Source: Patescibacteria group bacterium (lineage in GTDB: Bacteria > Patescibacteriota > Patescibacteriia > Magasanikbacterales > GWA2-37-8). Taken from it: a stretch of 64,000 nt of DNA. The notes under the pieces were generated by a model. It saw nothing but the letters and a program-made list of their open reading frames with translations. It was not told the origin of the DNA and did not search any database. Position 1 is the stretch's first letter. Each line of letters opens with the position of its first letter. Made by a program: the position numbers and the translations under genes. The stretch covers positions 78,337-142,336 of the forward strand of contig JAKLGL010000002.1 of NCBI GenBank assembly GCA_022710645.1, read 5' to 3'. Below, piece by piece: positions 3,271-48,356 of this stretch.

Positions 3271-3344
3271 TGTCATTCCTGCGAAAGCAGGAATCCAGGA
3301 TTTTAAACGACTGCCGCTGGATCCCTGCTTTCGCAGGGATGACA
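3271..3344. repeat. Imperfect inverted repeat with 26-bp arms, each arm itself a small hairpin (cctgc-gaaa-gcagg). Arms are separated by 22 nt.
   Basis: tgtcattcctgcgaaagcaggaatcc ... ggatccctgctttcgcagggatgaca. Translated it gives the SFLRKQESRI / PAFAGMT junk peptide typical of a widespread palindromic repeat family. It sits in the dnaE upstream region. Confidence 0.6.
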
Positions 3345-3455: not shown

Positions 3456-3486
3456 AAAAACCCGCACGTTATGCGCGGGGTATGAA
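3456..3486 (-). terminator. Rho-independent terminator downstream of paralog A.
   Basis: aaaaaaacccgcacgttatgcgcgggg is a GC stem with a T-run on the minus strand. It is near-identical to the terminator at 4805-4835. Confidence 0.5.
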
Positions 3487-3499
3487 AGAACAGCCGAAA

Positions 3500-4073
3500 T
3501 TAAAATGTTTCTTTACGAACAGCTAAAAACTTAGTTGCAGTAGATTCAGGCCAAGGATAATCAAATAGATAATTATCTAAATGATATCCAGATTTAGATA
3601 AATAATAACTAACAGGAACACAGGGGTGCTTATAACAATTAATAACGGACCCAAGAGCAACTACCATAAACTCCTTTTTTTTTGATTTCAGGATAAGTCC
3701 TGATAAAAACCTTGAATTCATGAAATGTTGCTGGACGAAGTCTGTTTTCTTCCATATGAGAAAGCACATCTTCTGTTGTAGGACGCCCTTCAAAAGGATT
3801 AAAAAGCTCTAAATCAAGATTAAATACACCATGTTCAATAACAGCAGGGAAATTACATTCTTTGTGAACAACATCAAAAACCACTTCTTCATTTTTTTCT
3901 TCATCATAATCAATAGAAATTGGATATTTTTTTGCAGAGATTAATTTATCTTCACAAAAATCTATCACTTTTTTCCTGTTTTTTGGATCAAATAAAGCAC
4001 GAGAATTTCTGTGTCCGAGTGCTTTCAAAAAAATCACCATCTCCTCAAAAAATCGTAACATTGTTTTCTCCAA
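3500..4073 (-). pseudogene. Paralog A of a three-member small-protein family. It is split into two overlapping frames (4073..3639 and 3793..3500) at an A9 homopolymer near 3664-3672. It may be a frameshifted pseudogene or a phase-variable gene.
   Basis: The N-terminus (FLKALGHRN..KKVIDFCEDKL) aligns with paralogs B and C (FIKAVGREN..KVKEFCKTL). Deleting one A from AAAAAAAAA fuses ...PEIKKK to EFMVVALGSV...AVRKETF. The upstream promoter and leader match copy C. Confidence 0.55.
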
Positions 4074-4078
4074 ATCTT

Positions 4079-4200
4079 TTCATTGTATTAATAATAAAAG
4101 GAACATATTTGTTGATTGCTTATCGTATAATATTTTAATGTTTTTGTCAACCCCGCTTAGCGGGGTTACAGTCACGCTCAGCGTGACAATATAATAATTG
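4079..4200 (-). promoter_or_regulatory. Duplicated upstream cassette (copy A). On the minus strand it reads hairpin gtcacgc-tga-gcgtgac, then hairpin ccccgc-tta-gcgggg, then -35 TTGACA, 17 nt, -10 TACGAT, then a conserved leader ending ATGGAGAAAACAATG.
   Basis: About 90% identical over roughly 115 nt to 6662-6775. The -35 is at 4145-4150 and the -10 at 4122-4127 (plus-strand coordinates). Confidence 0.5.
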
Positions 4201-4234
4201 ATCTAATTGATATTATCTTAACTTTTACAAGAAA

Positions 4235-4800
4235 TGAAAACCACCAGCTAACGCTGGTGGTTTCTTTCTTGCCGGCCGTTAGGCCGGCAGAGGCAACTTC
4301 GGTAGCTCTGGTCTGCGGGTTTGTTGATTATTGATATAGTTTTTAAGTTGGTATTCGTTAATACCGACGGTAGAGACAAAATAACCCCTTGACCAGAGCG
4401 AGCCCAACGGTAATTTATTGGGCGCCTTCTTTTTTAACCAATTACTACTTTTACCTTTGAATATTTGAACTACATAGGAAACGGAAAACTTAGGCGGAAT
4501 TATTATATAAAGATGAATATGTTCATCTCCGACATGCCAAGCTAACAATTTAATATCTTTCCATTTGGCTATCACCTTGAAAATTCTTTTTAATTCTTGT
4601 TTAATATACTTATCAACCAATACTTTACCGCGATATTTGGTAATCCAAACTAAGTGATATTGGCAAAGGTAAGTACAATGTTCCAGATTGTACAACCTAT
4701 ATGGTGCGGATGGAATAAAAATCACCTCCTTTCTGCTAAGCGGGGTGATTTTATTTTACCATGAGCTACGCTCCAAAAGGACACGCCGGCTAAAGCCGGC
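4235..4800 (-). mobile_element. IS200/IS605-family element carrying tnpA only. Boundaries are approximate.
   Basis: TnpA ORF flanked by subterminal hairpins: ccaccagc-taac-gctggtgg and gccggcc-gtta-ggccggc at 4243-4291, and cgccggc-taaa-gccggcg at 4775-4792. It is inserted between paralog cassettes A and B. Confidence 0.55.
4279..4725 (-). CDS. tnpA: IS200/IS605 family HUH/Y1 transposase TnpA (148 aa, GTG start).
   Basis: CQYHLVWITKYRGKVL ... DEHIHLYI (HuH) ... FKGKSSNWL ... LWSRGYFVSTVG (catalytic Tyr) ... NYINNQQ. This is a close pattern match to IS608-type TnpA. Confidence 0.8.
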   Translation of the reverse strand: MIFIPSAPYRLYNLEHCTYLCQYHLVWITKYRGKVLVDKYIKQELKRIFKVIAKWKDIKLLAWHVGDEHIHLYIIIPPKFSVSYVVQIFKGKSSNWLKKKAPNKLPLGSLWSRGYFVSTVGINEYQLKNYINNQQTRRPELPKLPLPA

Positions 4801-4804
4801 GGTT

Positions 4805-4835
4805 TTCGATTAATAAAAACCCGCACGTTGTGTGC
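4805..4835 (-). terminator. Rho-independent terminator downstream of paralog B.
   Basis: aaaaacccgcacgttgtgtgcggg has a 7-bp stem with a T-run on the minus strand. It is a near copy of the 3456-3486 terminator. Confidence 0.5.
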
Positions 4836-4853
4836 GGGATAACTTTGAGAATT

Positions 4854-5417: not shown

Positions 5418-5458
5418 ACAAAGTTTAAAAATAAAAGGAACAATTTTACTAACTGCAT

Positions 5459-5487
5459 ATTATAGCACATTTTAGCACCCTTGTCAA
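5459..5487 (-). promoter_or_regulatory. Perfect sigma70 consensus promoter for paralog B. Minus strand: TTGACA-agggtgctaaaatgtgc-TATAAT, with the palindrome acccttgacaagggt overlapping the -35.
   Basis: Plus-strand tgtcaa at 5482-5487 and attata at 5459-5464, with a 17-nt spacer. The spacer is 14/17 identical to the promoter at 61503-61531. Confidence 0.5.
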
Positions 5488-6662: not shown

Positions 6663-6775
6663 TACAAATTTATAATAATAAAAGGAACTATTTTATTGAT
6701 TGCTTATCGTATAATATTTTAACTTTTTTGTCAACCCCGCTTAGCGGGGTTGTAGTCACGCTCAGCGTGACAAAA
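6662..6775 (-). promoter_or_regulatory. Duplicated upstream cassette (copy C): two GC hairpins, then TTGACA-17-TACGAT, then the conserved leader.
   Basis: tgtcaa at 6729-6734, ccccgcttagcgggg at 6735-6749, gtcacgctcagcgtgac at 6755-6771, and the -10 atcgta at 6706-6711. Confidence 0.5.
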
Positions 6776-14559: not shown

Positions 14560-14603
14560 AGTATAAACTAAAATTTATCTTTTGTCAACCCCGCTAAGCG
14601 GGG
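14560..14603 (-). promoter_or_regulatory. Third copy of the CCCCGC-hairpin plus TTGACA-17-TATACT promoter module.
   Basis: Plus strand tgtcaa at 14583-14588, ccccgctaagcgggg at 14589-14603, and -10 agtata at 14560-14565. Confidence 0.45.
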
Positions 14604-48249: not shown

Positions 48250-48356
48250 GATTTTTAAATTATTTTTTACGTCGGTATTATAACAAAAACACCCTTTTTA
48301 TACAATTAACCCCGCTTTATTTTTGAAGCGGGGTTAATTTGAAAATATATTATTTT

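What the first reader, a model, noticed from the sequence alone, without database searches (positions are those of the whole stretch)
4140..4800. IS200/IS605 TnpA with its own GCCGGC subterminal hairpins, bracketed by inverted REP-like CCCCGCTTAGCGGGG hairpins that recur elsewhere
The TnpA (HuH plus catalytic Tyr) is flanked by hairpins gccggcc-gtta-ggccggc at 4272-4291 and cgccggc-taaa-gccggcg at 4775-4792. These look like left-end and right-end transposon hairpins. Just outside are a complete CCCCGCTTAGCGGGG hairpin at 4151-4165 and an inverted half-copy at 4733-4750. The same hairpin recurs at 6735-6749 and 14589-14603, each time fused to a -35 TTGACA. So either an IS200 has inserted into a REP-bearing cassette, or the TnpA is a RAYT-type enzyme that mobilises these REP-like hairpins. 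The second possibility would also explain how the promoter cassette spread.
Basis: partly seen in the sequence, partly recalled or inferred. Interest (0 to 1): 0.55.

Follow-up and report, generated by a model that had tools for sequence, protein, structure and literature searches.

The report
Ordinary IS200 beside promoter hairpins
This is a standard small IS200-type jumping gene with well-defined ends, sitting next to GC-rich promoter hairpins of a Magasanikbacteria-like bacterium; it does not carry those hairpins, and they form a separate, unexplained repeat family.

Summary
The TnpA gene (4279-4725, minus strand) is real and is an IS200-type Y1 transposase, not a RAYT. It scores 124.9 bits against the NCBIfam IS200 model (cut-off 55) and 28.4 bits against the RAYT model (cut-off 80).

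Six independent insertions of this IS or close relatives define the element as about 582 bp, window 4232-4813. It always lies just 3' of a terminator hairpin plus TTTAY. Its end hairpins are 4784-4801 (LE) and 4240-4261 (RE).

CCCCGCTTAGCGGGG occurs three times (0.03 expected), each abutting a minus-strand TTGACA-N17 -10 promoter. It lies 66 bp outside the IS. The "half copy" is inside the IS, in the stem-loop that sequesters the tnpA Shine-Dalgarno sequence. Two of the three copies belong to a 101-nt duplicated upstream region of paralogous small genes.

Unexpectedly, the same 15-mer fused to TTGAC occurs in at least 13 candidate phyla radiation (CPR) genomes. It is often flanked by a TTGA direct repeat. 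One orthologous promoter shows empty and differently filled alleles. So the hairpins may be a gain-and-loss repeat family, but nothing links them to this TnpA.

The parts
4232..4813 (-). IS200-group insertion sequence, about 582 bp, with tnpA only
   Evidence: Homology with independent copies L006, L007, L008 and L012 starts and stops here. L004 shares the LE boundary with a different flank.
4814..4818 (-). Target pentanucleotide TTTAT, immediately 5' of the LE
   Evidence: All six insertions have TTTAT, TTTAC or GTTAT at this position, 5-9 nt after a terminator-like hairpin.
4820..4838 (-). Intrinsic terminator of the upstream 187-aa gene (CCCGCAC-ACAAC-GTGCGGG followed by TTTTT)
   Evidence: Terminator scan. 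It lies outside the IS.
4784..4801 (-). LE subterminal hairpin CGCCGGC-TTTA-GCCGGCG, followed by TGTCCTTTT. It is also terminator-like.
   Evidence: It is conserved with compensatory changes in distant copies.
4718..4752 (-). Stem-loop in the tnpA 5' UTR that sequesters the Shine-Dalgarno sequence (AAAAUCACC..GGUGAUUUU). It contains the 'half copy' CCCCGCTTAGC.
   Evidence: RNA fold z = -3.7. The stem is conserved in 6 copies.
4279..4725 (-). tnpA, a Y1 HUH transposase (H69, H71, Y115). The true start is probably 9 nt downstream of the GTG, which lies inside the SD.
4270..4289 (-).
   Evidence: Relatives have different stem sequences at the same place.
4240..4261 (-). RE-distal hairpin ACCACCAGC-GTTA-GCTGGTGGT. 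It is the same type as the LE hairpin and is followed by the terminal TTTTCATTT (4232-4239).
   Evidence: 9-bp stem with 3-4 covarying pairs.
4151..4165 (-). Hairpin A copy 1 (CCCCGC-TWA-GCGGGG), abutting the -35 TTGACA (4150-4145) of the 140-aa gene promoter. The -10 TACGAT is at 4127-4122.
4171..4187 (.). Hairpin B copy 1 (GTCACGC-TSA-GCGTGAC)
4089..4189 (-). 101-nt upstream module (hairpins B and A, promoter, conserved 5' UTR) of the 140-aa paralogue. It is 92% identical to 6673-6773.
   Evidence: D3. The promoter and 5' UTR part also occurs at 5426-5487 and in relative L034, with or without a hairpin.
6673..6773 (-). Second copy of the module, with hairpin A at 6735-6749, hairpin B at 6755-6771 and the promoter at 6734-6706. 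It lies upstream of the 159-aa paralogue.
   Evidence: The proteins are paralogous.
14560..14603 (-). Hairpin A copy 3 (14589-14603) with TTGACA-N17-TATACT. It lies upstream of a 43-aa ORF and a 128-aa gene.
48306..48337 (-). Variant with the same arms, CCCCGCT and AGCGGGG, but a 10-nt loop. It is flanked by TTAA on both sides and lies just 5' of TTGTAT-N17-TATAAT.

Best explanation
Window 4232-4813 (minus strand) is one copy of an ordinary IS200-group insertion sequence (IS200/IS605 family, tnpA only). The host is a Candidatus Magasanikbacteria-like Patescibacterium.

The IS. Its single gene encodes a Y1 HUH transposase. By homology with IS608 and ISDra2, this enzyme excises and inserts the top strand as single-stranded DNA. 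It recognises an ACCRCCRGC-type hairpin near each end and cuts at T-rich sites, TTTAY| at the LE flank and ...TTCATTT| at the RE. These mechanistic steps are inferred, not shown.

The element inserts just 3' of hairpin-plus-T-run sequences, that is, intrinsic terminators or the RE of a sister element. These resemble its own RE.

The LE hairpin doubles as a read-through terminator, and a second stem hides the Shine-Dalgarno sequence. This is the classic IS200 arrangement for keeping transposase expression low.

The hairpins. The CCCCGCTTAGCGGGG hairpins are not part of the IS and are not its substrates. They belong to host intergenic regions, sitting directly 5' of the -35 box of co-directional promoters. 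Two of the three copies are explained by a duplicated or converted upstream module of a paralogous small-gene family.

Hairpin A is a specific short GC-rich palindrome found next to TTGAC in many CPR lineages. The best reading is a low-copy, REP-like repeat that is gained and lost at TTGA sites. It probably also acts as a terminator or insulator between an upstream gene and the next promoter. What spreads it is unknown.
For: - Family: the IS200 HMM is passed and the RAYT HMM failed. Pfam Y1_Tnp matches. The best PDB relatives are IS200, IS608 and ISDra2 TnpA. NCBI names the identical protein an IS200/IS605 transposase of Ca. Magasanikbacteria.
- Ends: homology with four independent metagenome copies spans exactly 4819/4813 to 4232.
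- Target: six different LE flanks all end in a terminator-like hairpin plus TTTAY.
- Architecture: it is conserved with compensatory pairs in relatives of 58-96% identity. Both ends fold significantly.
- L004: its LE flank is a solo RE-like remnant ending in TTTAC.
- Position of the hairpins: hairpin A lies 66 bp outside the RE, and the half copy is inside the 5' UTR stem.
- Paralogy: sites 1 and 2 are a 101-nt repeat upstream of paralogous genes. Homologous promoters in relative L034 carry a degenerate hairpin or none.
- Nearest relative: L032 lacks the IS, these genes and the hairpins.
- Promoter context: 13 of 20 hairpin-A/TTGAC sites have TANNNT at 16-18 nt, against a 6-10% background.
- Wider distribution: 17 genome hits, mostly CPR. 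8 of 17 have a TTGA direct repeat.
- Polymorphism: the orthologous rodA-rplU junction has empty and differently filled alleles.
Against: - No transposition assay or empty site for this particular insertion was obtained. All three contigs carrying the neighbouring 187-aa gene have the IS.
- The 11-nt identity between the IS 5' UTR loop and hairpin A is hard to dismiss as chance. CCCC is explained by pairing with the SD, but GCTTAGC is not.
- L004 keeps the RE-side flank identical through the cassette while the LE flank differs. That pattern would also fit a larger unit moving together.
- The whole genome could not be scanned, so the true copy number of hairpin A is unknown, as is the presence of a RAYT or other Y1 gene elsewhere.
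- The function of the hairpin is inferred from position only.
Confidence: 0.85

Rival explanations
1. The TnpA is a domesticated RAYT-like enzyme, or acts in trans, and mobilises the CCCCGC hairpins as REP-like substrates. This would spread the promoter cassette.
For: - The hairpin recurs far above chance.
- A partial copy lies in the tnpA leader.
- L030 shows the A and B hairpins in an inverted, mosaic arrangement like a BIME or REPIN.
- Y1 enzymes with a TTGAT target are known (ISDra2; from my own knowledge).
Against: - The RAYT HMM scores 28.4 bits against a cut-off of 80, while the IS200 HMM scores 124.9 bits.
- There is no RAYT among the PDB matches.
- The gene travels with its own LE and RE in six contexts, none carrying hairpin A at an end.
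- The cleavage flanks of the IS are T-rich (TTTAY, TTCATTT), not TTGA.
- Hairpin A abuts its putative cut sites, leaving no room for the guide-to-cleavage-site spacing used by IS608-type enzymes (inference).
- Hairpin-A loci in 17 other genomes show no adjacent tnpA.
Confidence: 0.05
2. Hairpin A and similar GC-rich palindromes are tiny non-autonomous mobile elements. They insert at TTGA, typically in the -35 TTGAC, and duplicate TTGA so that the promoter is regenerated. The enzyme is unknown. They would resemble the mobile GC clusters of yeast mitochondria.
For: - The identical 15-mer plus TTGAC occurs at non-orthologous promoters in at least 7 CPR lineages, whereas chance predicts far fewer than one hit in CPR genomes (my own estimate).
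- It recurs within genomes: the window, JACOYB01, CAYOOO01 and L024.
- TTGA sits on the 5' side in 8 of 17 hits, and the Watson-Crick complement TCAA never does.
- At rodA-rplU, L041 (empty) and L042 (filled) differ by exactly palindrome plus TTGA, with homologous spacers.
- L025 and L038 are 92% identical in RodA but carry unrelated palindromes.
- Yeast mitochondrial GC clusters are flanked by short direct repeats (PMC4478555).
Against: - Only about half the copies have the TTGA repeat, and the three window copies do not.
- Copy number per genome is low, at 1-3.
- The L038 and L043 palindromes are homologous, so that allele is old and vertically inherited.
- The 'empty' L040 spacer matches the left half of that palindrome, so at least one empty allele is a secondary deletion.
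- No autonomous partner or mechanism is known.
- The search pattern required TTGAC, which biases what was seen.
Confidence: 0.25
3. Hairpin A is a selected functional site and not a repeat element. It could be the operator of a CPR-wide dimeric transcription factor centred near -43. Or it could be a U-tract-less terminator or insulator hairpin that evolves in place.
For: - Its position relative to the -35 is fixed, and the central base is free (T or A), as expected for a symmetric site.
- A hairpin is retained at the rodA-rplU junction in relatives of 76-92% identity, with G.U-compatible changes on the sense strand.
- Upstream genes are co-directional in the cases examined (the window sites and L025). 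In L025 the hairpin is the only terminator-like structure between rodA and the rplU promoter.
Against: - The downstream genes form no coherent regulon. They include rpmE, rplU, csoR, rseP and hypothetical genes.
- Different palindromes occupy the same site in close relatives, which does not fit a single factor.
- Window sites 2 and 3 already have canonical terminators 30-45 nt upstream.
- Selection for structure alone does not explain the same 15-mer across phyla or the TTGA direct repeat.
Confidence: 0.25

Closest known systems
IS200 (Salmonella/E. coli) and the tnpA-only IS200 group of the IS200/IS605 family
   Same: - It has a single Y1 HUH transposase gene of about 150 aa.
- It has no terminal inverted repeats and no target duplication.
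- It has subterminal hairpins.
- The LE hairpin is terminator-like, and a second stem occludes the ribosome-binding site.
- It is a small element.
   Different: - It is shorter, about 582 bp against about 700 bp.
- The RE carries two hairpins, one overlapping the stop codon.
- All six insertions seen lie just 3' of a terminator-like hairpin plus TTTAY.
- The host is a CPR bacterium.
IS608 (Helicobacter) and ISDra2 (Deinococcus) TnpA, the structurally characterised single-strand 'peel and paste' transposases
   Same: - The fold family is the same (PDB matches with E 6e-21 and 2e-13).
- There is a hairpin at each end, and insertion is 3' of a short specific sequence.
   Different: - There is no tnpB.
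- The target and cleavage sequences are T-rich (TTTAY, TTCATTT), not TTAC/TCAA or TTGAT.
- The guide-pairing rules were not tested here.
RAYT / REP (REPIN) systems of gamma-proteobacteria
   Same: - The catalytic superfamily (Y1 HUH) is related.
- The host genome contains short GC-rich intergenic palindromes, some in inverted doublets (3271-3344; L030).
   Different: - The protein fails the RAYT model.
- The gene is inside a mobile IS with its own ends and is not flanked by the REP-like hairpins.
- Hairpin copy number is low.
Mobile GC clusters of yeast mitochondrial DNA (PMC4478555). Correia elements of Neisseria are a further comparison, from my own knowledge.
   Same: - They are short GC-rich palindromes in an AT-rich compact genome.
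- They are flanked by short direct repeats and are polymorphic between relatives.
- Correia elements can supply promoter parts.
   Different: - Hairpin A is far smaller, at 15 nt.
- Its direct repeat is TTGA, coinciding with the -35 box.
- No mobility has been demonstrated.

Membership tests
IS200/IS605 family, IS200 group | Y1 HUH transposase with an HUH motif and a single catalytic Tyr | tested here: met
   H69-I-H71 and Y115. Pfam PF01797 at 116 bits. NCBIfam NF033573 at 124.9 bits against a cut-off of 55. PDB relatives 2f4f, 2ec2, 2a6m and 2xm3.
IS200/IS605 family, IS200 group | tnpA alone, with no tnpB, in an element of about 0.6-0.7 kb | tested here: met
   The element is 582 bp between boundaries defined by independent copies, and tnpA is the only ORF in it that matches a protein family.
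IS200/IS605 family, IS200 group | Subterminal imperfect palindromes at both ends, with no terminal inverted repeats | tested here: met
   The LE hairpin at 4784-4801 and the RE hairpin at 4240-4261 are of the same ACCRCCRGC type. They covary in relatives.
IS200/IS605 family, IS200 group | Insertion 3' of a short conserved target, without target duplication | tested here: met
   Six LE flanks end in TTTAT, TTTAC or GTTAT. The RE flanks are unrelated and no direct repeat is present.
IS200/IS605 family, IS200 group | Single-strand excision and integration activity | not testable with these tools
   Inferred from homology only.
RAYT (REP-associated tyrosine transposase) | The protein matches the RAYT equivalog model | tested here: not met
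   NF047646 scores 28.4 bits against a cut-off of 80. No RAYT structure appears among the PDB matches at E<=1.
RAYT (REP-associated tyrosine transposase) | A single-copy gene flanked by its cognate REP hairpins in inverted orientation, and not part of a mobile IS | tested here: not met
   The gene lies in an IS found at six different loci. Hairpin A is on one side only, 66 bp outside the RE. The other 'copy' is a partial match inside the leader.
REP / REPIN-like repeat (for hairpin A) | Many intergenic copies per genome, often as inverted doublets | tested here: inconclusive
   There are 3 exact copies and 1 variant in 64 kb, all intergenic and all in one orientation relative to promoters. An inverted mosaic is seen only in L030. 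The whole genome was not available.
MITE-like element with target-site duplication (for hairpin A) | Direct repeat flanking the element, plus empty sites in relatives | tested here: inconclusive
   The TTGA repeat occurs in 8 of 17 genome hits but in none of the window copies. The L041/L042 pair fits this model and L040 does not.

The most novel reading that the evidence does not exclude
CPR bacteria may harbour a class of minimal mobile palindromes of 15-25 nt, of which CCCCGCTWAGCGGGG is the most widespread. These would insert at the TTGA of -35 boxes (TTGAC) and regenerate the box through a TTGA repeat. Promoters would survive the insertion and could acquire an upstream terminator or insulator hairpin. 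This would be the smallest bacterial repeat element known, and a new way in which promoters and terminators become coupled in streamlined genomes.
Probability: 0.2. Interest if true: 0.65.

Novelty: new member of a known kind. Interest (0 to 1): 0.3.

Why it matters
The flagged object itself does not matter much. It is one more IS200, already named as such in GenBank, although its strict insertion next to terminator-like hairpins is a neat case of a target mimicking the element's own right end.

The side observation could matter more. An identical 15-nt palindrome is fused to the -35 box across distant CPR lineages, with TTGA direct repeats and empty and filled alleles at one orthologous promoter. 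If these palindromes are mobile or are copied between promoters, they would be a new and very small class of bacterial repeat. They would also help explain how gene boundaries are organised in ultra-compact genomes that cannot yet be studied in culture.

Tried and rejected
1. I suspected that hairpin A in L026 was the LE hairpin of a sister IS200, because AGAAAGGAGGTGAT follows it. Rejected: the downstream ORF is not a transposase and that sequence is simply a strong SD.
2. I looked for a common regulon downstream of hairpin-A promoters. The genes are unrelated (rpmE, rplU, csoR-like, rseP, PHP, hypotheticals).
3. I scanned all held DNA (about 250 kb) for other perfect hairpins abutting TTGAC. 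None turned up beyond hairpin A and the rodA-rplU orthologues, so this is not a general promoter architecture.
4. I looked for half-sites that might mark a longer element with CCCCGCT and AGCGGGG as termini. Only the 10-nt-loop variant at 48310 appeared.
5. A scan of viral contigs for the motif found 0 hits.
6. A literature search for the hairpin sequences found 0 papers. Searches for RAYT or palindromic repeats in CPR found nothing relevant.
7. At gathering thresholds, Rfam finds only tRNAs in the window. A permissive search gives a sub-threshold BSnc120 match over the IS RE (33.8 bits against 114), which I do not treat as membership.
8. I considered template switching or tandem duplication as the origin of the TTGA repeat. 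The L038 spacers show some similarity, but other alleles do not fit, so this is unresolved.
9. An empty site for this particular IS insertion was not found. All contigs with the neighbouring gene carry the IS.

Full report
**What is at the coordinates**

The region 4140-4800 contains a 148-codon ORF on the minus strand (4279-4725). It carries H69-I-H71 and Y115. It matches Pfam Y1_Tnp at 116 bits and the NCBIfam IS200 equivalog at 124.9 bits (cut-off 55). The RAYT equivalog scores only 28.4 bits (cut-off 80).

Its solved relatives are the Sulfolobus IS200 transposases (E 4e-26), IS608 TnpA (E 6e-21) and ISDra2 TnpA (E 2e-13). No RAYT appears among them. The identical protein is deposited as 'IS200/IS605 family transposase [Candidatus Magasanikbacteria bacterium]'. 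PheT homologues also place the window in Magasanikbacteria-like Patescibacteria.

**True ends of the element**

The exact protein is encoded on two further short contigs. Relatives of 58-96% identity lie on nine metagenome contigs.

BLAST and alignment show that homology with four independent copies (L006, L007, L008, L012) runs from about window 4819/4813 down to 4232 and no further. The IS is therefore about 582 bp.

On the LE side, six different flanks all end in a terminator-like hairpin, a T-run, and TTTAT, TTTAC or GTTAT. The common TAATCGAAAACC... follows immediately. On the RE side, identity stops after ...GCTGGTGGTTTTCATTT.

It is of the same ACCRCCRGC type as the LE hairpin. Both show compensatory changes in distant copies.

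Relatives carry a hairpin at the same place with a different stem sequence, although the predicted consensus pairs there are weak.

The LE folds into a terminator-like hairpin followed by a stem that pairs AAAAUCACC with GGUGAUUUU and buries the Shine-Dalgarno sequence (z = -3.7). The stem is conserved in six copies. From my own knowledge, this matches the published architecture of Salmonella IS200.

In L004 the LE flank is different. It has the two-hairpin layout of an RE and ends in TTTAC. So there the IS has landed right after the remnant of a sister element. I infer that the element targets sequences resembling its own right end, and intrinsic terminators do.

**Relation to the CCCCGC hairpin**

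The 15-mer occurs three times in the window, against 0.03 expected.

- Copy 1 (4151-4165) is 66 bp beyond the RE end, so it is outside the IS.
- The 'inverted half copy' (CCCCGCTTAGC, 4734-4744) is inside the IS, in the stem-loop that sequesters the Shine-Dalgarno sequence. It is present in all close IS copies at other loci.
- Its CCCC is explained by pairing with the SD. The remaining GCTTAGC match is unexplained and may be chance.

The IS is therefore not bracketed by the motif.

All three full copies sit directly 5' of TTGACA on the minus strand, with a 17-nt spacer and then TACGAT, TACGAT or TATACT.

Copies 1 and 2 are embedded in a 101-nt direct repeat that is 92% identical. The repeat also contains a second hairpin, GTCACGCTSAGCGTGAC, and a conserved 5' UTR. 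The genes behind the repeats are diverged paralogues, with 34-35% identity.

The promoter and 5' UTR part recurs at 5426-5487 without hairpins. In relative L034 it recurs with a degenerate hairpin at one copy and none at the other. So the 'cassette' is largely a conserved regulatory leader of a small-gene family, in a variable region between pheT and dnaE.

The closest relative, L032 (84% PheT identity), has neither these genes, nor the IS, nor the hairpins.

**The hairpin beyond this genome**

A scan of 185,579 species genomes for CCCCGCTWAGCGGGGTTGAC gave 17 loci. At least 13 are labelled CPR: Saccharibacteria, Gottesman-, Magasanik-, Levy-, Davies- and Amesbacteria, Peregrinibacteria and Minisyncoccia. 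One of these (L021) is a 23S rRNA helix, and one (L026) looks like a leader terminator.

Counting the three window sites with the 17 genome loci, 13 of 20 sites have a TANNNT hexamer 16-18 nt downstream. The background is 6-10%. So TTGAC is a genuine -35 box in most of them. The genes downstream are unrelated to each other.

In 8 of the 17 genome hits the hairpin is also preceded by TTGA, which makes a direct repeat. The Watson-Crick complement TCAA never occurs there.

L030 has the same A-plus-B double hairpin as the window. It also has a second, inverted B'-A' copy and a truncated third copy in one intergenic region. L024 has three copies within 80 nt.

A fourth window site (48310-48333) has the same arms with a 10-nt loop, again just 5' of a promoter.

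**An orthologous test case**

In L025 (Daviesbacteria) hairpin A lies in the last codons of rodA, immediately 5' of the rplU promoter. I retrieved the same junction from seven relatives.

| Locus | Junction |
|---|---|
| L040, L041 | single TTGAC-N17-TAAAAT (empty) |
| L025 | RTTGA-CCCCGCTTAGCGGGG-TTGAC |
| L037, L038 | RTTGA-CCACGTTCAGTTTCATGAACGTGG-TTGAC |
| L043 | RTTGA-CCATGTTCAGTTTACATAAATGTGG-TTGAC |
| L039 | RTTGA-TCCCGCACCATGATGGCGCGGGA-TTGAC |
| L042 | RTTGA-TCCCGATTGAATCGGGA-TTGAC |

- L041 and L042 differ by a clean palindrome-plus-TTGA indel, and their spacers are homologous.
- L025 and L038 are 92% identical in RodA yet carry unrelated palindromes.
- The L038 and L043 palindromes are homologous, so that allele is old.
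- The spacer of 'empty' L040 matches the left half of the L038/L043 palindrome, so L040 is probably a secondary deletion.

The data show gain, loss and replacement of palindromes between two TTGA(C) copies. They do not decide between a mobile mini-palindrome and local duplication and deletion under selection for a hairpin.

**Verdict**

The flagged object is an ordinary IS200-group element with defined ends, inserted next to a terminator and upstream of a hairpin-bearing promoter. The RAYT idea fails every test I could run.

The hairpins are a separate phenomenon. They are a specific GC-rich palindrome, with companions, sitting at terminator-promoter junctions of CPR genomes. They are over-represented and polymorphic, and how they spread is unknown.

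I found no paper containing these sequences. The nearest analogy I can cite is the mobile GC clusters of yeast mitochondria, which are flanked by short direct repeats (PMC4478555).

Noticed in passing
window 3271-3344: An inverted doublet of a different GC-rich palindrome: TGTCATTCCTGCGAAAGCAGGAATCCAG, an 18-nt spacer, then CTGGATCCCTGCTTTCGCAGGGATGACA. It lies upstream of dnaE and looks REPIN- or MITE-like. The orthologous spot is empty in L032. In L034 it holds a different doublet (GTCATTGCGAGG...CTCGCAATGAC). L006 carries a similar doublet at 3975-4039. All these units, and hairpins A and B, begin with GTCA.
   Followed up: partly
window 3480-4061 (-): The 140-aa gene downstream of the cassette looks frameshifted. 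Its frame ends at 3639, but an overlapping frame (ORF 3500-3793) continues to just before the terminator at 3461-3479. The shift is near an A-run at about 3680. This could be a pseudogene or a homopolymer sequencing error.
   Followed up: no
window 4089-4150, 5426-5487, 6673-6734; L034 5390-5450 and 6066-6130: A conserved promoter plus 5' UTR (TTGACAAAA...ATAAGCAATCA..AAAAT.GTTCCTTTTATT) is shared by a family of small paralogous hypothetical genes between pheT and dnaE. It is much better conserved than the coding regions. It may be a regulatory leader.
   Followed up: partly
window 4716-4725 (-): The annotated GTG start of tnpA lies inside the Shine-Dalgarno sequence (AGGAGGTGA). An in-frame AUU 9 nt downstream has ideal spacing. 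In L012 a GTG sits at the corresponding place after an in-frame stop. The real protein is probably about 145 aa and may start at a rare codon.
   Followed up: partly
window 4219-4305 (-): The two-hairpin RE of the IS gives a full-length but sub-threshold Rfam match to BSnc120 (Brucella sRNA 120; 33.8 bits against a gathering score of 114, E 2.6e-5).
   Followed up: no
L025 5283-5307; L037, L038, L039, L040, L041, L042, L043 (rodA-rplU junction): In Daviesbacteria the -35 box of the rplU promoter lies in the last codons of rodA (KR[IV]D = ..RTTGAC). Different palindromes are inserted there and change the RodA C-terminus. Its stop codon is often the TGA of the second TTGAC.
   Followed up: yes
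L021 2060-2074: The same 15-mer, with a GTCAA head, forms a helix within a 23S rRNA gene of a Peregrinibacteria genome. This is probably coincidental.
   Followed up: no
L036 8316-9692; L033 7559-7930: In relatives, the variable region next to pheT holds a bAvd plus reverse-transcriptase pair, the hallmark genes of a diversity-generating retroelement. Between pheS and pheT there is a 23S_rRNA_IVP-family gene. Neither is present in the window.
   Followed up: no
L033 3350-3400 and L034 3735-3765: The same 25-nt piece (TGTAGTTTATACCCGCTTGACGGGT) is nested in the loop of a GGAATGAC-type palindrome at two loci of one genome. The piece is itself a small hairpin containing TTGAC. These are palindromes inserted within palindromes.
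   Followed up: no
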